A stretch of 64,000 nt of DNA from Candidatus Zhuqueibacterota bacterium. Lineage in GTDB: Bacteria > Zhuqueibacterota > Zhuqueibacteria > Oceanimicrobiales > Oceanimicrobiaceae. Shown here in pieces: positions 1,872 through 42,398 of this stretch (the stretch's first letter is position 1; each line of letters begins with the position of its first letter). Below the pieces are notes generated by a model that worked only from the letters and a program-made list of their open reading frames with translations, made no database searches and was not told where the DNA came from. A program made the position numbers and the translations under genes. The DNA lies in assembly GCA_029261995.1 (NCBI GenBank), contig JAJDAF010000060.1, positions 21,963 to 85,962 of the forward strand, in the 5' to 3' direction.

Positions 1872-3362
1872 ATGCCCAAATATGTGCTTGCCCTCGACCA
1901 GGGCACAACCAGTTCACGAGCGATCTTGTTTGACCGTGCGGGAGCGGCGTGCGCACTTGCGCAAAAGGAGTTTAGGCAGCATTTCCCTCAGCCCGGTTGG
2001 GTTGAGCACGACGCCAACGAAATCTGGCAGACTCAGCTCGAAGTGGCGCGGCAGGCCCTGGCATCGGCGGGTACTACTGCTGCTGAGGTGGCGGCAATTG
2101 GCATCACCAACCAACGCGAAACCACCGTGGTCTGGGACCGTCGCACCGGTGCGCCAATTCACCGGGCCATTGTCTGGCAAGACCGTCGCACGACCCACCT
2201 CTGCGACGCGCTCAAGTCGAGCGGCCATGATCAGTCAATCCGTGACAAAACCGGCCTGGTGCTCGACGCCTATTTTTCCGCCACCAAACTGAACTGGCTG
2301 CTCGATAATGTGGAGGGCGCCCGCGAAAAAGTTCTGGCCGGTGACCTGGTATTTGGCACCATCGATTGCTGGCTGATTTGGAATCTGACCGGCGGCGCCA
2401 GCCATGTGACGGACATCAGCAACGCCAGCCGCACCATGCTCTTCAATATTCACACCTGCGAGTGGGACGAAGAGTTGCTGTCGCTCTTGGATATTCCGCG
2501 GTCGGTTTTACCCGAAGTCCAGGGGAACAGTGGAATTTTCGGTGAAACCGACCCGGCCCTCCTGAACGGTGCTATCCCGGTTGCCGGCGTTGCCGGTGAC
2601 CAGCAAGCGGCGCTTTTCGGTCAGATGTGTACCGACCCGGGAACATTGAAAAACACCTACGGCACCGGCTGTTTCATGATGCTGAACACCGGCTCGGAGC
2701 CAAAGCCGTCCGCCAACAATTTGCTGACCACCATCGCCTGGAAGATTGGCGACCAGGTAAGTTATGCGCTGGAAGGCAGCGTCTTTATCGGCGGAGCAGT
2801 CGTGCAATGGCTGCGCGACGGCCTCGGCCTGATCAAGTCTTCGTCGGATGTTGAGACGCTGGCGAATTCGGTAGAAGACAACGGCGGCGTCTACCTGGTG
2901 CCGGCATTCGCCGGTCTCGGCGCACCACACTGGGACCCGCTGGCACGCGGCACGATGGTGGGATTGACCCGCGGTTCCACCGCCGGCCATGTTGCACGGG
3001 CTGCCTTGGAGAGCATCGCCTTTCAGAGCGCCGACGTCATGCAGGCGATGAGAGCGGATGCCGGAATCGAGATTGCCGAGCTGCGTGTTGATGGCGGCGC
3101 CACAGCGAACGACACCCTCATGCAGTTTCAAGCAGATGTGCTCGGTCTGCCGATCATCCGCCCGCATGTGACCGAGACCACGGCACTTGGCGCCGCATAT
3201 CTGGCGGGGCTCGCGGTCGGGTTCTGGCCGGACGTTGCCACCCTGCGCCGCCAGTGGCAGACTGAGCGCGTATTCAAACCCAAAATGCAGGCTGACCGGG
3301 TTCAGGCCCTGAAGCACAACTGGCAGAGGGCGCTCGATCGCAGCCGTAGCTGGCTGGAGTGA
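1872..3362 (+). CDS. glpK: glycerol kinase
   Basis: 496 aa. N-terminal [18 protein letters not shown] (FGGY kinase motif), [14 protein letters not shown] and the C-terminal FGGY domain. RBS GGAGAAA upstream. Confidence 0.9.
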
Positions 3363-3452
3363 GTTACAGGTTTGCAGTCTTGATTCTACATCGAACCAGG
3401 CCACCGCAACTCTGGCCTGGAAATGAGCACTTGAATTCCTAAACAAAACGCT

Positions 3453-5030
3453 TTGAGGGCGAGAAAGATCATGGACCGAGAAAGCATGCTCAACACCCTT
3501 CGCGACCAGTCCACGATTTGCGATTTTATCGTGATTGGCGGCGGCGCCACGGGCTTGGGCACCGCAGTTGAAGCCGCCTCGCGGGGCTACCGTACGCTGT
3601 TGCTTGAACAGCATGATTTTGCTAAAGGCACTTCCAGTCGCAGCACCAAGCTCATCCATGGCGGTGTCCGCTATTTGCAGCAGGGCAATATTTCGCTGGT
3701 GTTGGAAGCGCTGCACGAACGCGGCCTGCTGATTAATAATGCGCCGCACCTGGTTCGGAACCAGGCGTTTATCGTGCCCAATTATGACTGGTGGGAAGCC
3801 CCGTTCTACGGCATCGGCATGAAAGTCTATGACATCCTTGCCGGCAAGCTCGGACTCGGACCATCGAAAAATCTTTCGAAGCAAGAGACTCTGGAACGTA
3901 TTCCGACCCTGGAGCCGGAGGGGCTGCGCGGCGGCGTTATTTATTACGATGGCCAGTTCGATGACGCCCGGCTGGCAGTCAACCTGGCACAGACGCTGAT
4001 GGACCTGGGGGGCACGCCGCTCAACTACATCAAAGTCACTGGCCTGCTGAAGGAGAAAGGCATGACCAATGGTGTGGTGGCGGTTGAGCAAGAAACCGGC
4101 GAACAGTTTGAAATCCGCAGCCAGGTGGTGGTGAATGCAACCGGCGTGTTTACCGATGGCATTCGGCGGCTGGATGATCCTGCCGCGCACGAACTGGTGG
4201 CCCCGAGTCAGGGCGTCCACATCATTCTGGACAAAGCTTTTTTGCCCGGAGATTCCGCCGTGATGGTGCCGCACACCGATGACGGCCGTGTCCTGTTTGC
4301 TGTTCCGTGGCATAATCGGGTCATCGTCGGGACCACAGACACGCCGGTGGACAAGCCTGAACTCGAGCCGCGCGCCCTGCCCGAAGAGGTCGACTTCATC
4401 CTGAAGCACGCAGCGCAGTACCTCACCCACGACCCGACTCCGGATGATGTTCTGAGCGTTTTTGCCGGGCTGCGGCCGCTGGTGAAAGCGGAGGACAGCG
4501 AAAACACGGCGGCGCTATCGAGAGACCATTCGCTCATCGTCTCCGGTTCCGGGCTGGTGACCATCGCCGGTGGCAAGTGGACCACCTACCGCAAGATGGG
4601 CCAGGACACGGTGGACCGCGCCGCCATGGTGGCCTGCCTGGATGAGCGCAAAAGTCTTACCGAAACCATGAACATTCACGGCTGGCGCGCCAACGTCGAT
4701 GAAAGCGATCCGTTGCGTTTCTATGGCACCGATGCCGATGCCATTCGCAAACTCCCGCTTGAGGACAGCGATCTCGCCGCACAGCTTGACCCGCGGCTGC
4801 CCTACACACAGGCCGAGGTGGTCTGGGCCGCGCGCAGCGAAATGGCGCGCACGGTTGAAGATGTGCTCGCCCGCCGCACCCGTGCCCTGCTGCTCGACGC
4901 GCGCGCCAGCATCGACGCCGCGCCGCTGGTGGCCGAGTTGCTGGCGGCTGAATTGGACAAAGACGAGCAATGGGAGCAGGCTCAGGTTGCTGCCTTCCAA
5001 AAGGTAGCCGCAGGTTACTTGCTGAGCTAG
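3453..5030 (+). CDS. glpD: FAD-dependent glycerol-3-phosphate dehydrogenase
   Basis: 525 aa. N-terminal DFIVIGGGATGLGTAVEAASRG dinucleotide-binding motif. Sits directly downstream of glpK. The true start may be the internal M at 3471. Confidence 0.85.
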   Translation: MRARKIMDRESMLNTLRDQSTICDFIVIGGGATGLGTAVEAASRGYRTLLLEQHDFAKGTSSRSTKLIHGGVRYLQQGNISLVLEALHERGLLINNAPHLVRNQAFIVPNYDWWEAPFYGIGMKVYDILAGKLGLGPSKNLSKQETLERIPTLEPEGLRGGVIYYDGQFDDARLAVNLAQTLMDLGGTPLNYIKVTGLLKEKGMTNGVVAVEQETGEQFEIRSQVVVNATGVFTDGIRRLDDPAAHELVAPSQGVHIILDKAFLPGDSAVMVPHTDDGRVLFAVPWHNRVIVGTTDTPVDKPELEPRALPEEVDFILKHAAQYLTHDPTPDDVLSVFAGLRPLVKAEDSENTAALSRDHSLIVSGSGLVTIAGGKWTTYRKMGQDTVDRAAMVACLDERKSLTETMNIHGWRANVDESDPLRFYGTDADAIRKLPLEDSDLAAQLDPRLPYTQAEVVWAARSEMARTVEDVLARRTRALLLDARASIDAAPLVAELLAAELDKDEQWEQAQVAAFQKVAAGYLLS

Positions 5031-8002: not shown

Positions 8003-8031
8003 TTGACATTGTGTCTACTTTATGTTACTAT
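8003..8031 (+). promoter_or_regulatory. candidate sigma70-like promoter
   Basis: TTGACA (8003-8008), then 17 nt, then TACTAT (8026-8031). It sits upstream of the membrane-protein/XRE pair. Confidence 0.35.
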
Positions 8032-8060
8032 ATGTTCGTCAGGACTTACCAAAAGTAAAC

Positions 8061-8531
8061 ATGAACGGACAATATGAGGAAGACATGTCCTATCAAGAAA
8101 AAAGCATTTACGGATCCTTAATGAGCGCCATAATAATGCTTGCGCTCTATGGTTTTTACATGATTGAAATGTATCAGGAAGGGCGCTTCGATGGCGTAGA
8201 TGCCAGCAGCCTGGTGGGTAAGAGCGTTTTTGTGCTGATCGGTGTAAGTATTGTAGTTAGCATCATCGTACAGGTCGTATTCAGCATCATCCATTCAATA
8301 GCAACGAAAGAATACGAACACCCCATTTCTGATGAGCGCGACAAGCTGATTGAACTCAAGGGAATGCAGGTTTCTCTTGTGGCATTCAGTATCGGATTTG
8401 TTGGTTCAATGGGCGCATTGGCCATGGGAATGGCACCTTATATGGTCTTCTGCCTAATTACTTCCTCCATGTTTGTTGGATGTGTCGTGGGCGACACTGC
8501 AAAGCTCTTCTTCTATCATAGAGGGATCTGA
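8061..8531 (+). CDS. small polytopic membrane protein
   Basis: Hydrophobic helices throughout. Start uncertain: the ORF opens at 8022 inside the putative promoter, and I chose the M at 8061. Its stop is 1 nt before the XRE gene. Confidence 0.45.
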
Positions 8532-8976: not shown

Positions 8977-10743
8977 ATGTTAAATAGAAGGAAACAAGTG
9001 GGAGAGCCTGTTCTGACCAACGCGCAGACCGACGAACCGAGTCAGCAGAAGCCGCTGCGGCTGTGGCCCGGCGTGGTCATCGTGGCGCTGCAGTGGCTGG
9101 CCAGGTTTGTCGTCCCTATTTTAGTGCCTGATGTTTTTCAGTATGCGGTGATGGTGGGCGTTTTCGGTGGTGGGTTGGCTATCATTGTATGGTGGGCGTT
9201 CTTCAGCCGTGCACATTGGTCCGAGCGTTGGGGCGCCGTCGTCCTGATGATAGTCGCGCTGGTCGCGACACCGCTCATCCTCCATGAGTCGATTGCAACG
9301 GGGGCGATGGGTATGCTGTTCATCATCCTCGCCATCCCGGTCCTGGACCTCGCCTTCGTCGTCTGGGCGGTGGTCAGCCGTCACCTCCCTGACGGACTTC
9401 GGCGCGCGACACTGGTTGCGACAATCCTGCTCGCGTGCGCAGGATGGGCGCTCGTCCAGACCGGTGGCTTTGGCGGCAATCTCGATAACGATTTTTCTTG
9501 GCGCTGGGCTGAGACTCCTGAGGAGCAGCTCCTGGCCCAAACCGGTGACGAGCCGATGGTCAGGCCTTCGACTCCTGCGGCAATGGAGACAGAGGCCGAC
9601 TGGCCCGGCTTTCTCGGACCCAATCGTGACGGCGTCATCCGTGGCGTGCGCATCGAGACCGACTGGTCCGCGTCGCCGCCGGTCGAGTTGTGGCGCCGGC
9701 CGATCGGGCCGGGCTGGTCGTCCTTCGCGGTCCGCGGCGACCTGCTCTACACCCAGGAGCAGCGCGGTGATGACGAGGTCGTCGCCTGCTATAAGGTATC
9801 CACCGGCGAGCCGGTGTGGAGACATAGCGACGCGGCCCGGTTCTGGGAGTCGAATGCCGGCGCCGGTCCGCGCGGAACCCCGACCCTCAGCAACGGTCGC
9901 GTGTACACATTGGGTGCGACCGGAATCCTGAATGTGCTCGATGCCCGTGACGGCGCTGTCGTGTGGTCGCGCAACGCGGCTTCCTATACCAAGGCAAAGC
10001 TGCCAATCTGGGGCTTCTCAGGCTCGCCGTTGGTGACGGATAGCCTGGTCATCGTCGCCACCTCCAGCGCACTCGTCGCCTACGAACTCGACACCGGCAA
10101 TCCACGCTGGTTCGTGCCGGACAGCGGCGACGGCTACAGCTCGCCACAGCTATTGACGATCGACGGAGTCACGCAGATCCTGCAGCTAAGCGGCGATGGT
10201 CTGACCAGTGTCACGCCGGGCGATGGCACGTTGCTCTGGCAGCACTCCTGGTCCGGCTATCCCATCGTACAGCCAGCCATGACCGCGGATGGCGATCTCC
10301 TGATCAGCGTCAACGCGGAAAGCGGCATGCGCCGTCTCTCGGTGGCACAGGGAGCCGGCGGATGGACCATCGAAGAGCGTTGGACCTCGCGCGGACTAAA
10401 GCCCTATTACAGCGACTTCGCTGTTCATGATGGCCATGCCTTCGGCTTCGACGGCAGTATTCTCGCGTGCATCGACCTCGAGGATGGCAAGCGCAAGTGG
10501 AAGGGCGGACGCTACGGCGCCGGCCAGCTAGTGCTGCTGGCAGACCAAGGCTTGCTGCTGGTGCTGTCGGAGAAGGGTGAACTGGCACTGGTCAATGCGG
10601 CTTCCGACAAGTTCACGGAGTTGGCACGCTTCCCGGCCATCGAGGGCAAAACCTGGAACCACCCGGTGCTGGTCAACGACATCCTGTTGGTTCGCAACGC
10701 CCAGGAGATGGCTGCATTCCGTCTGGCTCTCGCGGGCGGCTGA
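8977..10743 (+). CDS. membrane-anchored PQQ-repeat beta-propeller protein (paralog 1)
   Basis: 588 aa. About 5 N-terminal TM helices, then PQQ/BamB-like propeller repeats (LLYTQEQRGDDEVVACY, GRVYTLGATGILNVLDARDGAVVW, DGHAFGFDGSILACIDLEDGKRKW). Confidence 0.75.
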   Translation: MLNRRKQVGEPVLTNAQTDEPSQQKPLRLWPGVVIVALQWLARFVVPILVPDVFQYAVMVGVFGGGLAIIVWWAFFSRAHWSERWGAVVLMIVALVATPLILHESIATGAMGMLFIILAIPVLDLAFVVWAVVSRHLPDGLRRATLVATILLACAGWALVQTGGFGGNLDNDFSWRWAETPEEQLLAQTGDEPMVRPSTPAAMETEADWPGFLGPNRDGVIRGVRIETDWSASPPVELWRRPIGPGWSSFAVRGDLLYTQEQRGDDEVVACYKVSTGEPVWRHSDAARFWESNAGAGPRGTPTLSNGRVYTLGATGILNVLDARDGAVVWSRNAASYTKAKLPIWGFSGSPLVTDSLVIVATSSALVAYELDTGNPRWFVPDSGDGYSSPQLLTIDGVTQILQLSGDGLTSVTPGDGTLLWQHSWSGYPIVQPAMTADGDLLISVNAESGMRRLSVAQGAGGWTIEERWTSRGLKPYYSDFAVHDGHAFGFDGSILACIDLEDGKRKWKGGRYGAGQLVLLADQGLLLVLSEKGELALVNAASDKFTELARFPAIEGKTWNHPVLVNDILLVRNAQEMAAFRLALAGG

Positions 10744-11179: not shown

Positions 11180-12961
11180 ATGTTGAAGAGAGCAAAACAA
11201 GTGGGGGAGTCTGATCTAGCCAACGTCCGGAGTGACGAAGCGACTCGACAGAGGCCACTCCGGCTTCTGCCTGGCGTGGTTATCGTGGCGCTGCAGTGGC
11301 TGGCCAGGTTTGCCGTCCCTTGGGTTGTGCCAGGGGCCTGGGCTTTAGGATTCGGGATATCTGGTGGATTCGTCGGCGGGTTGGCTATTGTCGTGTGGTG
11401 GGCGTTCTTCAGCCGGGCGCCTCGGTCGGAGCGCTGGGGCGCCGTCGTCCTGATGATAGTCGCGATGACCGTGACACCGCTCATCCTGCATGAGTCGATT
11501 GCGACGGCGCAGATGGGGATGACGTTCTTCATCTACGCCATTCCGGTGTTGAGCCTTGCCTTCGTCATCTGGGCGGTGGCCAGCCGTAGCCTTTCTGACG
11601 GACTTCGACGCGCGACAATGGTCGCGACCATCCTGCTTGCGTGCGGAGTGTGGGCGCTCGTGCGAACCGATGGCATGACCAGCGACATCGGTCATGATTT
11701 CGCGTGGCGCTGGGCGGAGACTGCCGAGCAGCGGCTCCTGGCCCAGGCCGGCGACGAGTTGACGGCGCTGCCATCGCCTCCGGCAGCAGCGGAGACAGCA
11801 GCCGACTGGCCCGGCTTTCGCGGACGCAATCGCGACGGCCACATCTCCGGCGTGCGCATTGAGACCGACTGGTCTGCATCGCCCCCGGTTGAGCTGTGGC
11901 GCCGGCCGGTCGGACCGGGCTGGTCGTCCTTCGCGGTCAGCAGCGACCTGCTTTACACCCAGGAGCAGCGCGGTGACGACGAGGTGGTGGCCTGCTACAA
12001 CGTGACCAGCGGCGAGCCGGTGTGGAGACACCGCGATGCCGCTCGCTTCCTGGGCGCGGCTGCCAACCCTGGTCCACGCGCGACGCCGACCCTGAGCGCC
12101 GGTCGCGTATACACCTTCGGTGCGACCGGAATCCTGAACGCGCTCGACGCTCGTGACGGCGCCGTCCTGTGGACACGCAATGCGGCCTCCGATACCGGCG
12201 AGAAGGTCCCGGTCTGGGGTTTTGCGAGTTCGCCGTTGGTGGTCGAAGACCTCGTTATCGTTCACGCCGGCGCACTGGTCGCCTACGACCTCGCCACCGG
12301 TGAGCCGCGCTGGTTCGGTCCGGCCGGTGGTGAGAGCTACAGCTCGCCACATCTATTGACCATCGCTGGCGTTGCGCAGGTCCTGCAACTGAGCGGAAAC
12401 GGCGCCATCAGCGTCTCGCCGGCCGATGGCGCGTTGCTTTGGGAGCACCCGTGGCCGGGTGGCAGCATCGTTCAGCCGGCCCTGACCGCGGACGACAACA
12501 TCCTGATCAGCGCCGAGGAAAATGGCACGCGCCGCATCGCGGTGACGCATGGACCCGCGGGATGGACTGTCGAAGAACGCTGGACCTCGCGCCGGCTGAA
12601 GTCCAGCTTCAACGACTTCGTGGTTCATAATGACCATGCCTTCGGTTTCGACGGCAGTATTCTCGCGTGCATCGACCTCGTGGACGGCAAGCGCAAGTGG
12701 AAGGGCGGACGCTACGGCCACGGCCAGCTCGTCCTGTTGGCCGACCAGGAGGTACTGCTGGTGGTGTCGGAGAAGGGCGAGCTGGCGCTGGTCGCGGCAA
12801 CCCCTGACCAGTTCACGGAGCTGGCGCGCTTCCCGGCCATCGAGGGCAAGACCTGGAACCACCCGGTGCTGGTCAACGACCTCCTGCTGGTCCGCAACGG
12901 CCAGGAGATGGTGGCGTTACGGCTGTCGCTCGCGGCTGACCTGAGTCAAAGTGGTCATTGA
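11180..12961 (+). CDS. membrane-anchored PQQ-repeat beta-propeller protein (paralog 2)
   Basis: 593 aa and about 75% identical to 8977..10743 along its full length. The roughly 90-nt leaders are also related (catgaacc.aa..ttcaaa...ggagga). Confidence 0.75.
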   Translation: MLKRAKQVGESDLANVRSDEATRQRPLRLLPGVVIVALQWLARFAVPWVVPGAWALGFGISGGFVGGLAIVVWWAFFSRAPRSERWGAVVLMIVAMTVTPLILHESIATAQMGMTFFIYAIPVLSLAFVIWAVASRSLSDGLRRATMVATILLACGVWALVRTDGMTSDIGHDFAWRWAETAEQRLLAQAGDELTALPSPPAAAETAADWPGFRGRNRDGHISGVRIETDWSASPPVELWRRPVGPGWSSFAVSSDLLYTQEQRGDDEVVACYNVTSGEPVWRHRDAARFLGAAANPGPRATPTLSAGRVYTFGATGILNALDARDGAVLWTRNAASDTGEKVPVWGFASSPLVVEDLVIVHAGALVAYDLATGEPRWFGPAGGESYSSPHLLTIAGVAQVLQLSGNGAISVSPADGALLWEHPWPGGSIVQPALTADDNILISAEENGTRRIAVTHGPAGWTVEERWTSRRLKSSFNDFVVHNDHAFGFDGSILACIDLVDGKRKWKGGRYGHGQLVLLADQEVLLVVSEKGELALVAATPDQFTELARFPAIEGKTWNHPVLVNDLLLVRNGQEMVALRLSLAADLSQSGH

Positions 12962-12965
12962 AACG

Positions 12966-13079
12966 TCCTTTTAACAAGGAGTCTCACTGAGTCAGCGGAG
13001 GTTCACGGAGCACTTGCTTGCAGAGACAGGAACTCCGTGTTCCTCCGGTTTCTCCGCGGCTCCGTGTTCAAAGCAAACC
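12966..13079. repeat. about 110-nt structured repeat, copy 1
   Basis: tccttttaacaaggagtctcactgagtcagcggaggttcacggagcacttgcttgcagagac...ctccgtgttcctccggtttctccgcggctccgtgtt, containing nested inverted repeats (ttcacggag / ctccgtgtt). Confidence 0.55.
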
Positions 13080-13171: not shown

Positions 13172-13279
13172 TGAAACATCCTTTTGACACGGAGCCACTG
13201 AGTCAACGGAGTTTCACGGAGAAAGTGCTTGCAGAGACGACAACTCCGTGTTTCTCCGTTTGCTCCGCGGCTCCGTGTT
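13172..13279. repeat. about 110-nt structured repeat, copy 2
   Basis: Direct repeat of 12966..13079 at about 85% identity. Confidence 0.55.
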
Positions 13280-13385
13280 GAGACCTGACCGGTACGCCTG
13301 CCCACCCGGGAAACAGTAGAACTGCTTCGCCGCAAGCCGGCGTCGCATTGACATAAGCGCGGAATGTTAGCTGCCAGGAGGACTG

Positions 13386-13751
13386 ATGAAGTACGAGCCA
13401 ATCAACTTTAGAGATAAGCTGTCAATGTTCGACCAGCATTGGTCACCAAGAGTAATCGCAGAAATGAACGATTACCAGTTCAAGCTGGTGAAAGTTTCCG
13501 GGGAATTTGTTTGGCATGCTCATCCCGAAACAGATGAGGTTTTCATTGTCATCGAGGGCAGCCTTGATATTGAATTTCGTGACGGCAAGGTCACCCTGCA
13601 AAGCGGAGAAATGTTCGTAATCCCGAGGGGTGTTGAACATAAGCCTGTAGCAGAGCGTGAATGTAAAATGATGCTGGTTGAACCAAAAGGTGTGGTAAAT
13701 ACGGGGGATGCCGGCGGTGAGCTAACAGCAGAGAATAATGTTTGGGTATAA
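13386..13751 (+). CDS. cupin-domain protein
   Basis: 121 aa with a two-His cupin motif region ([18 protein letters not shown]...[14 protein letters not shown]). AGGAGG RBS 7 nt upstream. AT-richer than the flanking DNA. Confidence 0.7.
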
Positions 13752-13861
13752 AGGAGTCAAACAAAGCACTGCACACGGATTCGCTCGCTCTCCGGTGAAT
13801 GCGGAGTTATGAAACACGAGCTGCAAACGATGCCGGGCAGCGGAAAAATCATGAAATAGGC

Positions 13862-14113
13862 CCGATGCGCGATGAAATAAGTCTGACGCGGTATGGGAAA
13901 AGCCTGATGCGGCATGAGATAAGCCTGATGCGCTATGGGAAAAGTCTGATGCGGCATGAGAAAAGTCCGATGCGCCATGAGAAAAGTCTGATGCGGTATG
14001 GGAAAAGCCTGATGTGCAATAGGCAAAGTCTGATGCGGCATGAGATAAGCCTGATGTGCCATGAGAAAAGTTCGATGTGTCATGAGAAAAGTCTGATGCG
14101 CGATGAGAGCCCG
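13862..14113. repeat. tandem array of 12 units of 21 bp (consensus CTGATGCGGCATGAGAAAAGC)
   Basis: The units are read directly from the sequence. There are no spacers, so this is not a CRISPR array. Both strands keep open frames through it, giving heptad repeats MRHE(I/K)SL (+) or ASDFSH(A/T) (-). Confidence 0.7.
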
Positions 14114-14537
14114 AGTTTGTAGGCTGAGCATGTTTCAGGAGCGCAATTTTCTGCTTGATATGCCCAATAGACTTTTCTATCTTCTTGTCACTATCTGAAG
14201 CGTCTCCAACTAAACCATTCATGACCAGCCGAATTCGGGTGGGAGAGGATGCAGGCTCCTAATTGACATCCACGACAGAAGCAGACGTTGCTATGGCAGG
14301 CCTAACGCAGAATGCAAAGCTGATCCGTGCCATAGTCGCTCACCACGGAGATGCCATGCTCGACACATGGTTATTGGACCGTAACATGTCCAGTAACAAA
14401 GGCGACAGCGTTCCGAATTGCGAGAGCAATTCATTGATTTGAAGGTCGTTAGGACAATCTGTGACGACTGGTTTATCGGACATGATGTGGCCGAAATCTT
14501 GGATCCAATAAACTAGGTTGGGTTACTAGGACAACTT

Positions 14538-14999
14538 ATGGATATTCCAGCAGACTTAGATGTTTTAAAAGGTGATATTTCTCGCGAGATACAGAGATTG
14601 CGGAAAAGTCGTTCTAACAACAAATATAAGGCTGCCAATATTGCAATCTATACAGGAGCGGTAGCTGCAATAACAACCGTGTGTATTGGGATCGGAACTT
14701 TCGTAGGAGAAGAGTTAGGAAGGGTTTTTGGGTTGATATCATTGGTAACGAGCGCATCCATATCTGTAGTATCGGCTTGGGACGGAATATTTAACCATAA
14801 GAAGCTTTGGGTTAGCATCTCCCTTACGTTGAATCAGTTTTATGAACTTGATACTGATATTTGCCACCTTGAGGCCCAAGGTGATATCGACCAAGAGACA
14901 AGAAACAAGCTATACATCCGGTTTAAAAAGATCTTAGCAGATTCCGACAGAAGGTGGTATCAAATACGAGATGCAGGTGTCGAGACAATAGAATCCTAA
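14538..14999 (+). CDS. small two-transmembrane (2TM) protein, SLATT-like
   Basis: 153 aa: N-terminal helix, two TM helices (AANIAIYTGAVAAITTVCIGIGTF and GLISLVTSASISVVSAW), C-terminal helix. This matches the SLATT domain layout. AT-rich. Confidence 0.45.
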   Translation: MDIPADLDVLKGDISREIQRLRKSRSNNKYKAANIAIYTGAVAAITTVCIGIGTFVGEELGRVFGLISLVTSASISVVSAWDGIFNHKKLWVSISLTLNQFYELDTDICHLEAQGDIDQETRNKLYIRFKKILADSDRRWYQIRDAGVETIES

Positions 15000-15099
15000 C
15001 AAAATGCGCAGGAAAAAATACTCGCTGTGGCTCGCATTTTTTCTGTGAGCACGACTAGTTGCTACGGTTCTAACATGTGGCTCAAGCACGAACTGTAAT

Positions 15100-16182
15100 T
15101 TGGAAAGGACGCATATTTTTATGGCAACAAGAATATCAATGTTCAATCATAAGGGTGGGGTAAGTAAGACCACCACCACCTTCAATCTTGGCTGGATGCT
15201 TGCGTCGCGAGGTAACAAGGTGGTTCTTGTTGATGCTGATCCCCAGTGTAACTTGACGGGTCTCGTATTGGGTTATGAAGGGATCAATGGTTTTGAAAAA
15301 TTCTATGAAAATTATGCGGAGCAGAACATAAAGGCGGGTTTGGCCCCTGCGTTCGAATCACGGCCAGAGCCGATTGAGGCTATCGAGTGCATTGAGGTCA
15401 AAGGTGTAAATGGGCTGAGCCTCATACCAGGGCATATCAATTTTTCTGAATACGAAGTGACACTCGGCATCTCTCAGGAACTATCCGGATCAATCCAAGC
15501 ACTCCAGAATCTACCAGGTTCTTTATCACACTTCATCGATAAAACCGCAAAAACTCAAGGCGCTGATTATGTTCTCATCGACATGAATCCAAGTCTTGGT
15601 GCAATAAATCAGAACCTATTAATGACGAGTCACTACTTTCTAGTTCCAACCGCTCCTGACTATTTCTCTAGAATGGCCATTGACTCTCTGAGCACCGTCT
15701 TACCTAAGTGGCATGCTTGGGCGGAAAAGGCAAAATCTATTGCCGTGCTGCAAAACGCGGCATATCCATTTCCGAAAACTATCCCCAAAATGCTGGGAAC
15801 TGTGATACAAAAATATAGACCTAGAAAGGGTAAAGCAACTGAAGGTTTCCAAGTCTGGATAGATGAAATTAACAAGTTGGTTTCTGAAAAGTTGGTGCCA
15901 GCTCTAAGGAAGAACAACATGGTTCTCGCGGACAAAGACTATGGCAACATTAGTGATGATTTTAGTTCCACTTACTGTCTTGCACAAATCCCAGACTTTA
16001 ATACACTCATTGCGACGTCACAGTCTCATCGAACACCAGTTTTTGCGCTAACTGACGACATGTTTCGCCATGTCGGTAGTGTTTTGGAGCAGGATAGAGT
16101 CAAAAAAAGGGAATTCAACACGATTTTCACTGAATTGGCAAAGAAAATCGCGACTTTGATAGAAAATGCAGCAGGCAATTGA
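15100..16182 (+). CDS. ParA/MinD-family P-loop ATPase
   Basis: Deviant Walker A NHKGGVSKTTTTFNLG, then VVLVDADPQCNLT. 360 aa. The start may be the M at 15121. Confidence 0.8.
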   Translation: MERTHIFMATRISMFNHKGGVSKTTTTFNLGWMLASRGNKVVLVDADPQCNLTGLVLGYEGINGFEKFYENYAEQNIKAGLAPAFESRPEPIEAIECIEVKGVNGLSLIPGHINFSEYEVTLGISQELSGSIQALQNLPGSLSHFIDKTAKTQGADYVLIDMNPSLGAINQNLLMTSHYFLVPTAPDYFSRMAIDSLSTVLPKWHAWAEKAKSIAVLQNAAYPFPKTIPKMLGTVIQKYRPRKGKATEGFQVWIDEINKLVSEKLVPALRKNNMVLADKDYGNISDDFSSTYCLAQIPDFNTLIATSQSHRTPVFALTDDMFRHVGSVLEQDRVKKREFNTIFTELAKKIATLIENAAGN

Positions 16183-16768
16183 CCAATTCCGCAGTAATAT
16201 TCAAAATATCCGAGCACTGTCATCCACAATTGTTGCTGTAAATAGAATGACGACAGAAGTGGTTGACCTCTCTGATATACTTAGAGCCGAGATTGTATTG
16301 GCGGTTAGTGCTCTGGATCATTTTGTTCATGAATTTGTTAGATTAGGAATGCTTGATATTTATTCGAGATCTCGAAGGCAGACAGATTCGTATCTAAGGT
16401 TTCAGGTGGCTTTGAGAGCAGCACATTTAGGTGAAACCAATCCGGCAGAGAATGGGTGGCTTGACGAATGCATCCGAGAACGTCATTCATGGCAGAGTTT
16501 TCAGGAACCCGACAAGATCGCAGATGCAATAAGATTGGTTTCCGAAATTAGGTTGTGGGATTCAGTTGGCCGAGAACTGGATAAAACGGGAGCTGATGTC
16601 AAGGCAGCACTGAAATTGATTATAGATAGAAGGAATAAGATTGCCCACGAGGCGGATATGGATCCTACCAATCCTGGTGTTCGCTGGCCAATCAACCAGA
16701 GGATGACAGAACAAGCAGTCAACAACGTTGAAGCGATAGTTGAAGCGATATACAAGGTAGCATCCTAG
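16166..16768 (+). CDS. putative HEPN-superfamily protein (Rx4H motif)
   Basis: 200 aa. Overlaps the ParA gene end by 17 nt, which suggests translational coupling. It carries DRRNKIAHE, matching the HEPN Rx4-6H RNase signature, and is predicted to be all-helical. Confidence 0.45.
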   Translation: MQQAIDQFRSNIQNIRALSSTIVAVNRMTTEVVDLSDILRAEIVLAVSALDHFVHEFVRLGMLDIYSRSRRQTDSYLRFQVALRAAHLGETNPAENGWLDECIRERHSWQSFQEPDKIADAIRLVSEIRLWDSVGRELDKTGADVKAALKLIIDRRNKIAHEADMDPTNPGVRWPINQRMTEQAVNNVEAIVEAIYKVAS

Positions 16769-17012
16769 ATACTCGCTAACATTGGCTCGCATGATGAATC
16801 GGGGAATGCCTTCCCCAGAGCGAGCCAGATGTTCAACCACGAGCCGGACGATCATTCGATTCTCAAGGTTGAACTCTTGCAGCGGGAGATAGCTTGGCGG
16901 GGTGAGCATGTGGGCAGCAAATCTTCCACGAGCAGGAGACAATGTCTAGATCAAAATGCGGAACATCGAATAACTGTCAGGTTACTAAAGAAACATTATG
17001 GATTCATAGACT

Positions 17013-17726
17013 ATGTCAAGTAGTGGGTACGAAATTCTCGCTAGCGAATACTACGATCATGCTCATATTACTTCAAGAAATTTTGATTCTGCAACAGCGA
17101 ACTTCTGCAAAGAGTTTGCCTTTCCTTTAATCCCGAAAGGTGTTATCGTTGAACTAGGTGCCGGAAGAGGGCGAACCCGTGAATATTGCCGCATTCCAGA
17201 ATCGCGCATAATTCAAACTGATTTATCTTATGGAATGCTGCAACTCAATTCTCGCGAGAATTCTATTGCTAGAGTGCAATGTAGCGCCCTCGAACTACCA
17301 TTTAAGCACTCATCGATGTCTGCCATTACGGCTTTTCTTTACGATCCCTATAATAGGCCAAAACTATATTCAGAAATGCATCGTGTCATGAAAACTGAAG
17401 GAATCTTCATAGGCACGCTGCCCCATCATGTTTGGGGAGAAAGTCTCAGAAATCTTAAGGGCATAGATGCAAACAAAGCTAGAATAATCCGCTTTACCAC
17501 AGACTCAAAGGAATTCGTTGAGATGGATTCCTACTTGATGAACGAAAATGAGATTGCAGATTCATTTCATTCTGCGGGGTTCGGCAAGATTGAATTTCAG
17601 GATTTGTTTTTGCCGAGAGAAATAAAGTGCTCTGATATTTCGCCACACATAGCAGAGGCAGCAAGCTCACAGGAGATATCGCCATATGAATTGCCAATCG
17701 TCACATTTATTCTAGGCTGGAAATGA
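17013..17726 (+). CDS. class I SAM-dependent methyltransferase
   Basis: VIVELGAGRGRT (motif I, glycine-rich loop). 237 aa. Confidence 0.7.
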   Translation: MSSSGYEILASEYYDHAHITSRNFDSATANFCKEFAFPLIPKGVIVELGAGRGRTREYCRIPESRIIQTDLSYGMLQLNSRENSIARVQCSALELPFKHSSMSAITAFLYDPYNRPKLYSEMHRVMKTEGIFIGTLPHHVWGESLRNLKGIDANKARIIRFTTDSKEFVEMDSYLMNENEIADSFHSAGFGKIEFQDLFLPREIKCSDISPHIAEAASSQEISPYELPIVTFILGWK

Positions 17727-17727
17727 A

Positions 17728-18366
17728 ATGAAGAAGAAATACTTGATTTTCTGGGCAACTGAGTTCGCAAGCCTAACAGCGATTTCTATCATCCTTGCAA
17801 AAATCGATTGGTCAATGTACTGGATAGTAATACCAGTTGTCCTTATTCTCACCATGAAAGTGCTCGAGTATCGGTTCTTTCTAGATCAAAAACAAGCCTC
17901 AATTCAATCACAGCTCAAGCTCCTTGTAAAACTTTTGAGATCAGAGGGTGTGTCCAGCATTAGATGCACCTATCACGTTCCGATATCAGACTCGAAATTC
18001 CTTCAGGTATTTGACTATATTCCCAACGGTGGCGGTGGAAAGAGAAAATTCAACACAACTAGAGGAATTATCGCAAAAGCTTTCCAAGAAAAGACCCCCC
18101 TTGTTGAGAATTTTGATGGCAGCCACGACTTTCAGAAGCGCATGGTTACACAGTACAATTACAGTACCTCCGAACTAGGACATAGAACTCCAGATCGCAG
18201 GTCGTATATTTGCTACCCAGTTATTGATGAAAACCACTATGTAATGGGAATGATATATTGTGATTCATCAGTGCCCCATACTTTTGAATTGGATGGAGGT
18301 GGCAATCAGAAAATTTCAAAGATGATAATTGACGCTAGCGAAGTTATTCGCGACAACATGATATAG
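17728..18366 (+). CDS. 2TM membrane protein with a C-terminal globular (possibly GAF-like) domain
   Basis: Starts 1 nt after the methyltransferase stop. Two N-terminal TM helices, then an amphipathic helix, then about 130 aa containing GGGKRKF...YICYPVIDENHYVMGMIYCDSS. Confidence 0.45.
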   Translation: MKKKYLIFWATEFASLTAISIILAKIDWSMYWIVIPVVLILTMKVLEYRFFLDQKQASIQSQLKLLVKLLRSEGVSSIRCTYHVPISDSKFLQVFDYIPNGGGGKRKFNTTRGIIAKAFQEKTPLVENFDGSHDFQKRMVTQYNYSTSELGHRTPDRRSYICYPVIDENHYVMGMIYCDSSVPHTFELDGGGNQKISKMIIDASEVIRDNMI

Positions 18367-19475
18367 TGTGTCTAACTAGCAGCTCAACAGACGGCTGGCC
18401 CGGAAATGATGAAAAGACTTATGTGGTATCGGTAAGAAGCGACGTTCCACGCAAGATGTCGACATTGAAAAAACTTCTCATTGGACTAGGCGCCGTTGCA
18501 ATTATAACACTTATCGCCTTTTCCTGGTTTGTCATGTCCTTGTTTTCTGAGCAGGATATGTCAGAAGTTCCTGACCACTATCCGTTTAAATCGGCAGAGG
18601 CCAAAGAACAATATCTGCACCATTATGACAAGAGAGCGCGAGCGTGGCCTGTTGCTTCGGAATCCAGGGTCGTGGAAACATCTTATGGCCGGACTTTTGT
18701 TCGCATCAGCGGTCCGGTAAATGCGCCACCTTTGGTCTTGCTACCTTCTACCAGCGCTTCATCTCTTATCTGGATACCCAATATTCAGACACTATCCGTT
18801 CACTACAGAGTCTATGCTGTTGACAACATTTACGACTTTGGCCGCAGTGTCAATACTCGCAACATCAAGAGTTCTGATGACATGACGCACTGGCTCGATG
18901 AGCTGTTTACTGCGCTTACTCTCGGAGACAGTATCAATCTTATGGGGCTTTCATTTGGTGGCTGGCTGACAAGCCAATACACACTTGCTCATCCAACCAG
19001 GCTCAACAAGGTCGTATGGCTCGCCCCGGTGGCGACAATCCATGATATTCCGGCAGAGTGGGCGTGGCGTGGCATGCTCTCCGCGTTGCCCTATCGTTAC
19101 TTCATGACGAAATTCATGGTAGAATGGCTTTTTGAAGATTTGTGCAAGAAGACTGATGAGCATAGTCTGGAACAGATAGATGATTTGGTTGATGATGCCA
19201 TGCTCGGCCTCAAATGTTTTAAATTCCGGATGCCAATCACACCCTCTGTCTTGACGGATAATGAATTACAGAGCATCAAGGCGCCAACGCTCTTCTTGGT
19301 CGGTGAAAATGAGAAACTCTATCCCGCAAAAAAAGCTGTTGAACGTCTCAACACATTGGCGCCGCAGATACAAACGGAAATCATACCGAATGCCGGCCAC
19401 GACTTAACAATCGTTCAGGCAGAATTGGTAAATCGAAGGGTTCTTGATTTCCTGATGACAACTAATCCAGAATAA
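18366..19475 (+). CDS. membrane-anchored alpha/beta-fold hydrolase
   Basis: GLSFGGW nucleophile elbow (GxSxG). TM anchor LLIGLGAVAIITLIAF. The probable true start is the M at 18456. Confidence 0.7.
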   Translation: MCLTSSSTDGWPGNDEKTYVVSVRSDVPRKMSTLKKLLIGLGAVAIITLIAFSWFVMSLFSEQDMSEVPDHYPFKSAEAKEQYLHHYDKRARAWPVASESRVVETSYGRTFVRISGPVNAPPLVLLPSTSASSLIWIPNIQTLSVHYRVYAVDNIYDFGRSVNTRNIKSSDDMTHWLDELFTALTLGDSINLMGLSFGGWLTSQYTLAHPTRLNKVVWLAPVATIHDIPAEWAWRGMLSALPYRYFMTKFMVEWLFEDLCKKTDEHSLEQIDDLVDDAMLGLKCFKFRMPITPSVLTDNELQSIKAPTLFLVGENEKLYPAKKAVERLNTLAPQIQTEIIPNAGHDLTIVQAELVNRRVLDFLMTTNPE

Positions 19476-19519
19476 GCGCGGCTGCCCTTGACGACCATGC
19501 TTAACTACGAAACCAAGAT

Positions 19520-41681: not shown

Positions 41682-42398
41682 CTAAATATTCTCATCGAAA
41701 AGAGATTGGATTTCATCTTCCCTAAGCGTACGATCATAGATTCTAATATCATCAATGACGCCATTGAAGAAGTACCTACTTGTGTCACGGTTTGTGCCAA
41801 TAAATGACCTTGGGAAACCTACATCAGAATGATGATTCATGAATGGCACAGAATTAATAATCTCTCCGTTTACGTAGGCACTTGTATTCAATGAATCAAT
41901 CATCAGGACAGCGTGATACCAATTATTCTGTACAATTGTATACAGAATATCATCACCCTGACCGCCGCCAGCTTCCAATCGCAATTTATATTCATTAGAC
42001 TGATTATCTTTGAAGACATCAATATTCGTACTTGAATAGTCCAAATTTGGATGGTCAGAATTGTATAATCTGTTGTATCCATCCACTTCATTTACACTAA
42101 ACCAAAGGCTAATGGTACGTTGTGCTAAATCAAAATCTGAAGGTAAGCCGATGAAATCATCGACCCCATCAAAACTAAATGCCCGGTTGCTGTTACCAGC
42201 CCTATCTTCAATTAATTCAACGCCATGTACTATTCCATTGTTCGAACTTGTTGCGTCATCTTTTGCATTACCGTTAAATGGATAATAGGCAACCAAGCCA
42301 TCAGTAGGTATTGGTTTCATATCAGGCGCGGTCGAATTGCCACAGGCTGAAATAAGAAAAGTGACCGTTAAGAACATAAGAAGATTTGACATAGCCAT
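41682..42398 (-). CDS. LamG/concanavalin-A-like lectin-domain lipoprotein
   Basis: Lipobox LISACG. GLVAYYPFNGNAKDD...FSFDGVDDFI is typical of LamG-type jelly-roll domains. Confidence 0.6.
   Translation of the reverse strand: MAMSNLLMFLTVTFLISACGNSTAPDMKPIPTDGLVAYYPFNGNAKDDATSSNNGIVHGVELIEDRAGNSNRAFSFDGVDDFIGLPSDFDLAQRTISLWFSVNEVDGYNRLYNSDHPNLDYSSTNIDVFKDNQSNEYKLRLEAGGGQGDDILYTIVQNNWYHAVLMIDSLNTSAYVNGEIINSVPFMNHHSDVGFPRSFIGTNRDTSRYFFNGVIDDIRIYDRTLREDEIQSLFDENI

What the first reader, a model, noticed from the sequence alone, without database searches (positions are those of the whole stretch)
13300..19500. AT-rich island encoding a ParA-like ATPase, an HEPN-motif protein, a methyltransferase, two 2TM proteins and a membrane hydrolase: candidate novel defence/abortive-infection module
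Base composition drops from roughly 60-65% GC in the flanks to about 40-45% GC between the end of the PQQ paralogs and the metallophosphoesterase gene, which is the signature of acquired DNA. Inside the island, a ParA/MinD-type ATPase (deviant Walker A KGGVSKTT) overlaps by 17 nt with a 200-aa protein carrying an HEPN-like Rx4H motif (RRNKIAH). Downstream lies a tight operon with 1-nt gaps: a SAM methyltransferase, then a 2TM plus globular-domain protein, then a TM-anchored alpha/beta hydrolase. Upstream lies a separately transcribed SLATT-like 2TM protein. This gene order does not match any named defence system I can recall. Membrane 2TM effectors, HEPN RNases and methyltransferases are recurrent parts of phage-defence and toxin systems. 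I saw no integrase, tRNA or transposase at the borders.
Basis: partly seen in the sequence, partly recalled or inferred. Interest (0 to 1): 0.8.

Follow-up and report, generated by a model that had tools for sequence, protein, structure and literature searches.

The report
Mobile ParA-HEPN pair in AT-rich island
The AT-rich stretch is real, but it is not one six-gene defence system: its core is a self-contained, widely travelled two-gene cassette (a ParA-type ATPase plus a HEPN RNase) that was predicted in 2013 to be a toxin-antitoxin pair and has not, in the literature searched, been tested, and unrelated passenger genes sit beside it.

Summary
These are the low-GC stretch, a ParA-type ATPase overlapping a HEPN protein by 17 nt, a SLATT 2TM protein, a SAM methyltransferase, a 2TM+GAF protein and an anchored esterase. 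No tRNA was found, and no integrase or transposase among the genes scanned.

The six genes are not one system. In 80 genomes from many phyla that encode a HEPN relative, a ParA homologue lies directly upstream in 79, usually overlapping by 17 or 8 nt. None of the other island genes occurs within 8 kb. Nearest neighbours are heterogeneous (165 Pfam families in 124 ORFs). The pair is more AT-rich than its flanks in 76 of 76 loci. It sits in type I R-M operons in 4 loci. Distant versions occur on Burkholderia conjugative plasmids and in Pseudomonas Pf filamentous phages.

The catalytic RRNxxAHE motif and the deviant Walker A are conserved, and the AF2 model is a HEPN fold. This matches the ParA/Soj-HEPN dyad predicted as a toxin-antitoxin module by Anantharaman et al. 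(2013). I found no experimental study.

The methyltransferase and 2TM-GAF genes form a second, independent conserved pair. SLATT and the YbfK-like esterase are singletons. Verdict: a new member of a known, predicted kind; moderate interest.

The parts
15121..16182 (+). ParA/Soj-type (SIMIBI) ATPase, 353 aa, with deviant Walker A NHKGGVSKTT. It is the upstream gene of the conserved pair and the predicted regulator or antitoxin. The mechanical ORF starts at TTG 15100. The source gene call and the homologue alignments start at ATG 15121.
   Evidence: Pfam AAA_31 1.9e-29 and CbiA 2.1e-14. Best solved structure is 3pg5, a full-length match at 5.7e-21. Walker A is invariant in 74 aligned homologues. 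A homologue of about 41-68% identity lies directly upstream of HEPN in 79/80 loci. Gene call of 353 aa.
16166..16768 (+). HEPN-domain protein, 200 aa (Pfam HEPN_RiboL-PSP), with conserved RRNxxAHE (Rx4H). It overlaps ParA by 17 nt and is the predicted RNase toxin or effector.
14538..14999 (+). SLATT-family 2TM protein, 153 aa. It is a neighbour of the pair in this genome only and is not a conserved partner.
   Evidence: NCBIfam SLATT_1 3.1e-15, 56.3 bits against a 41-bit cutoff. Pfam DUF4231 is below cutoff. Two hydrophobic segments at 32-57 and 60-81. Only two partial relatives are known; their DNA similarity covers 14517-15003 only and is frameshifted, and L089, which continues about 250 nt past it, has no ParA there. 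It is absent from all 80 pair loci.
17013..17726 (+). Class I SAM-dependent methyltransferase, 237 aa. It is the first gene of a second, independent conserved pair.
   Evidence: Methyltransf_11 1.3e-9 and Methyltransf_25 2e-8. Only weak small-molecule or rRNA methyltransferase hits. A homologue of 40-47% identity lies directly upstream of the 2TM-GAF gene in L086/L087, L088, L094, L095, L097, L099 and L101-L103.
17728..18366 (+). Membrane-anchored (2TM) GAF-domain protein, 212 aa. It is the second gene of the methyltransferase/2TM-GAF pair.
   Evidence: AF2 pLDDT 83.6. Foldseek against PDB returns GAF domains (PDE5/6/2, CyaB2, fRMsr) at probability 1.0. Hydrophobic segments at 5-24 and 28-52. 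Five relatives by word-indexed search. Exhaustive profile search finds 41 representatives at E<=1e-30 and 975 at E<=1e-3.
18366..19475 (+). N-terminally anchored alpha/beta-fold carboxylesterase of the YbfK/NP type. The start is uncertain: GTG 18366 gives 369 aa and ATG 18456 gives 339 aa. It is not conserved with either pair.
   Evidence: Abhydrolase_1 2.5e-15. PDB 4ccy YbfK 2.4e-42 and 4ccw/2r11 esterase NP. One hydrophobic segment. It never follows the methyltransferase/2TM-GAF pair in metagenome loci that have downstream sequence. It is absent from pair loci.
13386..13751 (+). Small cupin protein, 121 aa, at the left edge of the low-GC stretch.
   Evidence: Cupin_2 7.6e-13. GC 0.456, GC3 0.475. 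Absent from pair loci.
13300..19500 (.). Low-GC stretch (0.41-0.48 GC) holding the genes above. It has no recognisable integration machinery or bracketing repeats.
   Evidence: composition; no tRNA; no flanking direct repeats.

Best explanation
The island is an accretion of unrelated accessory cassettes, not a single system.

Its core, 15121-16768, is an autonomous, horizontally mobile two-gene module. A ParA/Soj-type ATPase gene overlaps the start of a HEPN ribonuclease gene.

Most likely mechanism (inferred, not shown): the HEPN protein is a growth-arresting RNase. Its composite Rx4H active site needs a particular dimer geometry. The ParA-type ATPase is made just before it from the same transcript and holds it inactive, acting as an enzymatic or sequestering antitoxin. 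It could do this through ATP-dependent sandwich dimerisation or through phosphoryl transfer. Loss or titration of ParA control would free the RNase. Plausible triggers are loss of the cassette, ATP depletion, or a phage or plasmid trigger.

The module therefore behaves as an addiction or abortive-infection element.

The methyltransferase/2TM-GAF genes are a second, independent two-gene module of unknown role. SLATT, the esterase and the cupin are unlinked singletons.
For: Shown:
- Strict pairing. ParA lies directly upstream on the same strand in 79/80 species-level genome loci, with a 17-nt overlap in 38 and an 8-nt overlap in 24. The same holds in 7/7 plasmid, inovirus and IMG/VR loci.
- The two proteins co-vary: pairwise identities correlate at r=0.70 over 74 pairs.
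- No third conserved gene. 124 nearest-neighbour ORFs hit 165 Pfam families, and the largest has 5 members. None of the other island genes appears in any locus.
- Mobility. The pair occurs in many phyla at a near-uniform 47-55% identity. It is more AT-rich than its flanks in 76/76 loci, by 9.5 points on average. It is inserted in a DUF58/VWA/BatA operon, next to HicB/RelB-like genes, and after pyruvate dehydrogenase genes. Distant versions are on Burkholderia conjugative plasmids and inside 10-kb Pf inovirus genomes.
- Conflict context. The order hsdM-hsdS-parA-HEPN(-hsdR) occurs in 4/80 loci.
- Catalytic competence. RRNxxAHE is conserved in HEPN. The model is a HEPN fold whose best matches include HepT toxins. 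The deviant Walker A, including the signature lysine, is invariant in ParA.

Published prediction of the same architecture as a toxin-antitoxin system: PMC3710099.
Against: There are no experimental data on toxicity, neutralisation or phage defence for any member; literature searches found only the 2013 prediction.

There is no PADLOC match for the HEPN protein, and only a P-loop-level match for ParA.

Only about 5% of loci are next to recognisable defence genes, and most neighbours are housekeeping genes. This fits a selfish toxin-antitoxin module better than a dedicated defence system.

Which protein is the toxin, and how ParA controls HEPN, is inferred from gene order and from analogy to MNT-HEPN.

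Pfam places the HEPN in the RiboL-PSP family. The 2013 paper tied ParA/Soj to its MAE_18760 family instead, so identity with the published dyad is not proven.
Confidence: 0.6

Rival explanations
1. The two-gene module is the same, but the logic is reversed. HEPN is inactive by default. The ParA-type ATPase is the sensor and activator: it senses foreign DNA, nucleoid perturbation or a phage protein, and then assembles or licenses the RNase. This would be a dedicated abortive-infection system rather than a toxin-antitoxin addiction module.
For: The pair is embedded between hsdS and hsdR of type I R-M operons, the slot used by PrrC/RloC-type nucleases (PMC3710099 for those precedents). It is carried as accessory cargo in Pf inoviruses and conjugative plasmids. 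The invariant signature lysine implies ATP-dependent dimerisation, which could bring two HEPN domains together (inference).
Against: The gene order (regulator first, overlapping stop and start) and the scattered housekeeping contexts are typical of toxin-antitoxin cassettes. There is no PADLOC match and no phage-challenge data.
Confidence: 0.2
2. The pair is a non-conflict, housekeeping-type RNA-processing or regulatory module: an ATPase-regulated RNase acting on specific cellular RNAs.
For: Most neighbours are ordinary metabolic or repair genes. Protein sequences are unusually well conserved for a toxin: about 50% identity across phyla with many invariant positions.
Against: The distribution is patchy, with no conserved genomic position. 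The pair is always more AT-rich than its host flanks, in 76/76 loci. It is present on plasmids and in filamentous phages. It occurs inside R-M operons.
Confidence: 0.07
3. ParA is a true DNA-partition ATPase for a mobile element. The 200-aa protein is its adaptor or centromere-binding partner, analogous to ParB or ParG.
For: ParA family membership holds at superfamily level, and PHROG names the family 'ParA-like partition protein'. The pair occurs on plasmids and in Pf episomes. The conserved N-terminal helix of the partner (F8, N11, R14) could act as an ATPase-stimulating peptide (speculation).
Against: The score is far below the NCBIfam partition equivalog cutoffs: 60 against 180 bits, and 56 against 348 bits. 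The partner is a HEPN fold with a conserved RNase motif, not a DNA-binding fold. Most copies are chromosomal and lie in unrelated contexts. No repeat families were found between SLATT and ParA, so no centromere-like repeats there.
Confidence: 0.05
4. One reading: SLATT, ParA, HEPN, methyltransferase, 2TM-GAF and hydrolase together form one novel multi-gene defence system.
For: All genes are on the same strand with tight spacing and share low GC. SLATT, HEPN and 2TM proteins do recur as components of conflict systems (PMC3710099, PMC7159879).
Against: There is no co-occurrence of the pair with any of the other four genes in 80 genome loci, in 7 phage, plasmid and viral loci, or in the closest relative. 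The methyltransferase/2TM-GAF pairs occur without ParA, HEPN, SLATT or the hydrolase in 13 metagenome loci. The SLATT relative lies in different flanks.
Confidence: 0.04

Closest known systems
ParA/Soj-HEPN gene dyad predicted as a toxin-antitoxin system (Anantharaman, Makarova, Burroughs, Koonin, Aravind 2013, Biol Direct 8:15; PMC3710099)
   Same: The architecture is the same: a SIMIBI ParA/Soj-like ATPase gene immediately upstream of a small stand-alone HEPN gene with an intact Rx4H motif. It is found sporadically in bacteria. The ATPase occupies the position of the antitoxin (searches compared).
   Different: The paper assigns the ParA-linked HEPNs to its MAE_18760 family and lists 'Ribo L-PSP-HEPN' as linked to ParB. 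Pfam places the present protein in HEPN_RiboL-PSP (PF18735). Equivalence could not be tested here. The paper called the dyad 'less common', but this clade alone has more than 1500 database homologues and relatives in 420 species-representative genomes.
HepT-MntA (HEPN-MNT) type VII toxin-antitoxin systems
   Different: The partner is a ParA-type P-loop ATPase, not a minimal nucleotidyltransferase. The HEPN is larger (200 aa against about 130 aa) and has extra helices. There is no evidence of AMPylation or phosphorylation.
PrrC / RloC and other nucleases embedded in type I R-M operons
   Same: In 4 of 80 loci the pair sits directly after hsdM-hsdS, and in one of these directly before hsdR. This is the classic position of R-M-linked suicide RNases.
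   Different: This is a two-gene unit with a separate ATPase, not an ABC-ATPase fused to the nuclease. Most copies (about 95%) are not R-M linked.
ParABS / type Ib plasmid partition systems
   Same: The ATPase fold and the deviant Walker A are shared.
   Different: No ParB or centromere was found. The ATPase scores below the partition equivalog cutoffs. The partner is a HEPN RNase fold.
SLATT 2TM pore-forming effector family (Burroughs et al. 2015, as cited in PMC7159879)
   Same: The 14538-14999 protein matches NCBIfam SLATT_1 above cutoff and has two TM segments.
   Different: No nucleotide-signal generator (SMODS, TIR, LOG, cyclase) was found among the island genes scanned. The protein is not linked to the ParA-HEPN pair elsewhere.
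Bacillus subtilis carboxylesterases YbfK / NP
   Same: The hydrolase aligns over the whole catalytic domain at E 2e-42.
   Different: It has an added N-terminal membrane anchor. Its physiological substrate is unknown.

Membership tests
ParA/Soj-HEPN predicted TA dyad (Anantharaman 2013) | Stand-alone HEPN protein with an intact Rx4-6H motif | tested here: met
ParA/Soj-HEPN predicted TA dyad (Anantharaman 2013) | ParA/Soj SIMIBI ATPase gene adjacent in the same operon, conserved across genomes | tested here: met
   79/80 genome loci and 7/7 other loci; overlapping stop and start in most.
ParA/Soj-HEPN predicted TA dyad (Anantharaman 2013) | HEPN belongs to the MAE_18760 family as defined in that paper | not testable with these tools
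   The MAE_18760 sequence was not retrievable. Pfam assigns HEPN_RiboL-PSP instead, and the paper's table links that family to ParB.
ParA/Soj-HEPN predicted TA dyad (Anantharaman 2013) | Toxin-antitoxin behaviour: HEPN toxic, ATPase neutralising | not testable with these tools
   This needs expression experiments. No published test was found.
[quoted passage not shown] | Cognate MNT nucleotidyltransferase antitoxin | tested here: not met
   The upstream gene is a ParA-type ATPase and has no NTP_transf hit.
ParABS / plasmid partition | ParA reaching the partition-family equivalog scores | tested here: not met
   NF041546 scores 60.2 bits against a 180-bit cutoff. TIGR03453 scores 56.3 bits against a 348-bit cutoff.
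ParABS / plasmid partition | ParB or a centromere-binding partner, with centromere repeats | tested here: not met
   The downstream gene is a HEPN fold. No repeat family lies near the pair.
SLATT domain family | Family HMM above cutoff plus a 2TM topology | tested here: met
   NCBIfam SLATT_1 56.3 bits against a 41-bit cutoff. Two hydrophobic segments. Pfam DUF4231 scores only 22.7 bits against a 24.7-bit cutoff.
SLATT-containing nucleotide-signalling conflict systems | Linked nucleotide-generating or nucleotide-processing enzyme (SMODS, TIR, LOG-Smf/DprA, cyclase) | tested here: not met
   None was found among the island genes.
Known anti-phage systems in PADLOC-DB v2 | Significant full-length match of any island protein to a system model | tested here: not met
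   There were only a P-loop-local hit of ParA to PDC-M28B (residues 9-47) and marginal hits of 2TM-GAF to PDC-M04A (E about 2e-3).
Restriction-modification | DNA methyltransferase motifs plus a restriction endonuclease | tested here: not met
   The methyltransferase hits only generic Methyltransf_11/25 and weak UbiE/BioC/RlmA-like models. There is no nuclease gene in the island.
GAF domain | GAF fold | tested here: met
   Foldseek probability 1.0 to many solved GAF domains. The Pfam GAF hit is only sub-threshold.

The most novel reading that the evidence does not exclude
The stretch would be a small defence island formed from three independent conflict modules.

1. A ParA-HEPN system that is a still-uncharacterised class of ATPase-gated RNase immunity or addiction. 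It would be broadly distributed across bacterial phyla and exploited by Pf filamentous phages and conjugative plasmids.
2. A previously undescribed methyltransferase + membrane-anchored GAF pair that acts as a ligand-gated membrane effector.
3. An orphan SLATT pore protein.

Under this reading the ParA-linked HEPN clade (Pfam RiboL-PSP) is distinct from the published MAE_18760 dyad. ParA recruitment to HEPN toxins would then have happened more than once.
Probability: 0.25. Interest if true: 0.65.

Novelty: new member of a known kind. Interest (0 to 1): 0.4.

Why it matters
HEPN RNases are the effectors of many immune and toxin systems, including Cas13, Csm6, RnlA, HepT and Abi proteins. Regulation of a HEPN RNase by a ParA/MinD-type ATPase has not been shown experimentally in the literature I could search.

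This survey shows that the predicted dyad is a tightly co-inherited cassette. It is compositionally foreign wherever it was measured. It is present in hundreds of species across many phyla, in type I R-M operons, on Burkholderia plasmids and in Pseudomonas aeruginosa Pf phages. The Pf copy offers a tractable, clinically relevant host for testing.

The result also has practical value for annotation. An AT-rich run of defence-like domains should not be read as one system without a co-occurrence test.

Tried and rejected
- PADLOC scan of all eight island proteins: no system-level match.
- Promoter and terminator scans: counts were not above the shuffled expectation, so no transcription units could be drawn.
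- Rfam scan of 12.8-21.5 kb: only one sub-threshold chance hit.
- Search for att-like direct repeats or inverted repeats bracketing the island: none.
- Intergenic ORF fragments (14263-14516, 16769-17023, and the repeat ORF 13722-14222): no Pfam family. My impression of a Bro-N-like remnant at 14418-14516 is therefore unsupported and dropped.
- SLATT neighbourhood: only three contigs of about 1 kb exist, too short to define partners. They show only that similarity stops at the gene borders.
- Source organism: exact look-ups returned no names, so the taxon is unknown.
- Sequence search of the HEPN profile against PDB: nothing significant. Only the fold comparison worked.
- IMG/VR scan: only 4 viral contigs carry close relatives, so phage carriage of this clade is rare.
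- GC of methyltransferase/2TM-GAF pairs against their flanks: no consistent trend.

Full report

Yes. GC in 500-nt windows falls to 0.41-0.48 between about 13.3 and 19.5 kb. The genes inside have GC 0.41-0.47 and GC3 0.39-0.50. The window mean is 0.529, and most other genes have GC3 of 0.55-0.72.

One correction is needed. The "60-65%" flank exists only on the left. The two PQQ beta-propeller paralogues there are themselves abnormally GC-rich (GC3 0.76-0.78). The right flank is 0.57.

All six proteins are as described.
- SLATT, 14538-14999: NCBIfam SLATT_1 at 56.3 bits against a 41-bit cutoff, with two hydrophobic segments.
- ParA-type ATPase, 15121-16182: motif KGGVSKTT.
- HEPN, 16166-16768: overlaps ParA by 17 nt and carries RRNKIAHE. 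Pfam HEPN_RiboL-PSP scores 40.4 bits against a 28.4-bit cutoff.
- Methyltransf_11 enzyme, 17013-17726.
- 2TM protein, 17728-18366: its globular part is a GAF domain (AF2 pLDDT 83.6; Foldseek probability 1.0 to solved GAF domains).
- Anchored alpha/beta hydrolase, 18366/18456-19475.

There is no tRNA in the window. The neighbours scanned contain no integrase or transposase. No direct repeats bracket the stretch.

**2. Is it one system?**

No. The HEPN protein has 1515 database homologues, and the best 120 are 51-66% identical and about 200 aa long. A scan of one genome per species found 420 relatives. I kept the best 80 loci with 8-kb flanks.

In these 80 loci a ParA homologue (about 41-68% identical, full length in most) lies on the same strand directly upstream in 79. 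The genes overlap by 17 nt in 38 loci and by 8 nt in 24. The window has the 17-nt overlap.

None of the 80 loci contains a homologue of SLATT, the methyltransferase, 2TM-GAF, the hydrolase, the cupin or the phosphoesterase at tblastn E<=1e-3.

The closest relative is 73% (ParA) and 66% (HEPN) identical. There the pair sits inside a DUF58/VWA/BatA operon. Another copy sits beside HicB, RelB-like, DUF433 and Uma2 genes.

The 124 nearest-neighbour ORFs of at least 100 aa hit 165 different Pfam families. The most frequent family has five members. Pairwise identities of ParA and HEPN across 74 pairs correlate at r=0.70.

The pair is therefore a self-contained, co-inherited two-gene unit.

**3. Mobility and context**

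Record titles place the 80 loci in many phyla. These include Chloroflexota, Acidobacteriota, Planctomycetota, Pseudomonadota, Cyanobacteria, Bacteroidota, Actinomycetota, Nitrospirota, Poribacteria, Verrucomicrobiota and Desulfobacterota. Identity to the window protein is a near-uniform 47-55%.

In all 76 loci with enough flank, the pair is more AT-rich than its surroundings. The means are 0.472 and 0.568, with Wilcoxon p=4e-14. The window shows the same contrast, 0.438 against 0.538. Part of the "AT-rich island" signal is therefore a property of the cassette itself.

In four loci (L007, L012, L013, L020) the pair follows a type I R-M specificity gene within 3-16 nt; hsdM was confirmed upstream of it in L007 and L020 and is inferred from ORF size in L013. 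In L013 the pair is followed by hsdR 14 nt later. In L012 it is followed by a GHKL-type ATPase.

More distant but clearly homologous pairs also exist.
- On Burkholderia glumae conjugative plasmids they are annotated "AAA family ATPase" plus "HEPN domain-containing protein".
- They lie inside Pseudomonas Pf filamentous phage genomes. In phage WX-TY (10.3 kb) ParA is 42% identical (E 2e-98) and HEPN is 32% identical, RRNxIxHE is kept, and the genes overlap by 8 nt.
- In prophage record AY324828 only the "Soj-like Orf317" is annotated. The HEPN ORF is not.

Four IMG/VR contigs also carry the pair. PHROGs holds the HEPN as phrog_13503, of unknown function.

**4. What the two proteins can do**

The ParA deviant Walker A (NHKGGVSKTT, including the signature lysine) is invariant in 74 sequences. 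Its best solved relative is the uncharacterised 361-aa protein 3pg5, which aligns over the full length. It scores far below the NCBIfam partition equivalog cutoffs, and no ParB is present.

**5. Most likely mechanism**

Shown: two catalytically intact proteins that are always encoded together with overlapping stop and start codons. The cassette behaves like a mobile selfish or defensive element.

Inferred: HEPN is the RNase toxin or effector, and the upstream ParA-type ATPase restrains it. The inference rests on gene order and on analogy with MNT-HEPN, as Anantharaman et al. proposed (PMC3710099). Restraint could work in two ways. ATP-dependent dimerisation could keep the HEPN monomers out of the active dimer geometry, or phosphoryl transfer could modify HEPN.

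A serious variant reverses the logic, with ParA as the sensor and activator in an abortive-infection system. I rate the partition-system, housekeeping and six-gene readings as unlikely, for the reasons given under the rival explanations.

**6. The other genes**

The methyltransferase and 2TM-GAF genes form a second conserved pair. A methyltransferase homologue of 40-47% identity lies directly upstream of the 2TM-GAF gene in L086/L087, L088, L094, L095, L097, L099 and L101-L103. L098 has 6 kb of upstream sequence and is the one exception with flank to judge. The hydrolase never follows the pair.

Contexts vary: dnaX-recR, type I hsdR-hsdM, an Eco57I-like methylase, a Roc-COR LRR protein and DUF6119. 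The family looked tiny in the word-indexed search, with 5 relatives. An exhaustive profile search finds 41 representatives at E<=1e-30 and 975 at E<=1e-3.

The methyltransferase is a generic class I enzyme with no DNA-methylase signature. The function of this pair is unknown, and I treat it as a separate lead.

The SLATT gene has only two partial relatives. Their DNA matches 14517-15003 only and is frameshifted. L089, the one contig that continues about 250 nt past the gene, has no ParA there; the other two end at or near the gene.

The hydrolase is a YbfK/NP-type carboxylesterase with an added membrane anchor. It is most simply an ordinary metabolic enzyme. Its start codon (GTG 18366 or ATG 18456) is uncertain.

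**7. Comparison with known systems**

The closest known entity is the ParA/Soj-HEPN dyad predicted as a toxin-antitoxin system in 2013. The two structural defining features are met: an intact HEPN and a conserved adjacent ParA/Soj gene.

The family label could not be reconciled. Pfam says RiboL-PSP-HEPN. The paper ties ParA/Soj to its MAE_18760 family and RiboL-PSP to ParB. I could not retrieve MAE_18760 to test this.

The pair is not a HepT-MntA system, because there is no MNT. It is not a ParABS system, because there is no ParB and the scores are below cutoff. It is not any PADLOC v2 system. I found no experimental paper on such a pair.

**8. Verdict**

The real unit is a two-gene ParA-HEPN cassette, which is a new member of a known but only predicted kind. 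Unrelated cargo lies beside it.

Interest is moderate. Nothing here overturns expectation. The survey does turn a decade-old prediction into a well-delimited, widely distributed and directly testable system, and the P. aeruginosa Pf phages offer an accessible model.

Limits: every functional statement is an inference. The neighbourhood survey covers the best 80 of 420 genome hits. The source organism is unknown.

Noticed in passing
window 13850-14108: A tandem array of a 21-nt unit (about 11.7 copies, consensus GATGCGGCATGAGAAAAGTCT; also scored with periods 42 and 63). It is open in several frames on both strands. One example is the minus-strand ORF 13722-14222, which encodes ASDFSHx heptad repeats. 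There is no Pfam match, and whether it is coding is unknown.
   Followed up: partly
window 12985-13079 and 13196-13290: Two copies of a 95-nt element, 83% identical and 211 nt apart, lie at the left edge of the low-GC stretch. Each folds into a long imperfect hairpin (-38.8 and -33.4 kcal/mol; z -3.3 and -2.2). They look like REP/MITE-type palindromic elements. There are only two copies in the window.
   Followed up: partly
window 8977-10743 and 11180-12961: Two tandem PQQ_2/BamB-like beta-propeller paralogues with N-terminal membrane regions are markedly more GC-rich (GC3 0.76-0.78) than the rest of the window. They may themselves be acquired, and they exaggerate the apparent GC drop at 13.3 kb.
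   Followed up: partly
L107 (AY324828.1) 4001-4516; L109 (PV296014.1) 2676-4308: Pseudomonas Pf filamentous phages carry a ParA-HEPN pair near one end of the prophage record (AY324828); in phage WX-TY it lies next to the integrase gene. In AY324828 only the 'Soj-like Orf317' is annotated, and the HEPN ORF overlapping its end is missing from the record.
   Followed up: partly
L013 5726-11805; L007, L012, L020: The ParA-HEPN pair is inserted between hsdS and hsdR of type I restriction-modification operons. In L012 it is followed by a HATPase_c_3 (GHKL/MORC-like) protein.
   Followed up: partly
L086 722-2431: One methyltransferase/2TM-GAF pair lies just downstream of two DUF6119 genes. Others lie next to type I R-M genes (L097) or an Eco57I-like methylase (L098). 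This hints that the second pair also frequents variable or defence-like regions.
   Followed up: no
window 8022-8531 and 41682-42398: There are further low-GC genes elsewhere in the window. One is a 169-aa ORF with no Pfam hit (GC 0.44). The other is a Laminin_G_3 protein (GC 0.38). The genome is therefore compositionally mosaic beyond the reported island.
   Followed up: no
L089-L091 (ENA metagenome contigs): The only close relatives of the SLATT gene (82% nt identity) carry the same frameshift in three independent assemblies. This suggests a decaying or truncated copy.
   Followed up: no
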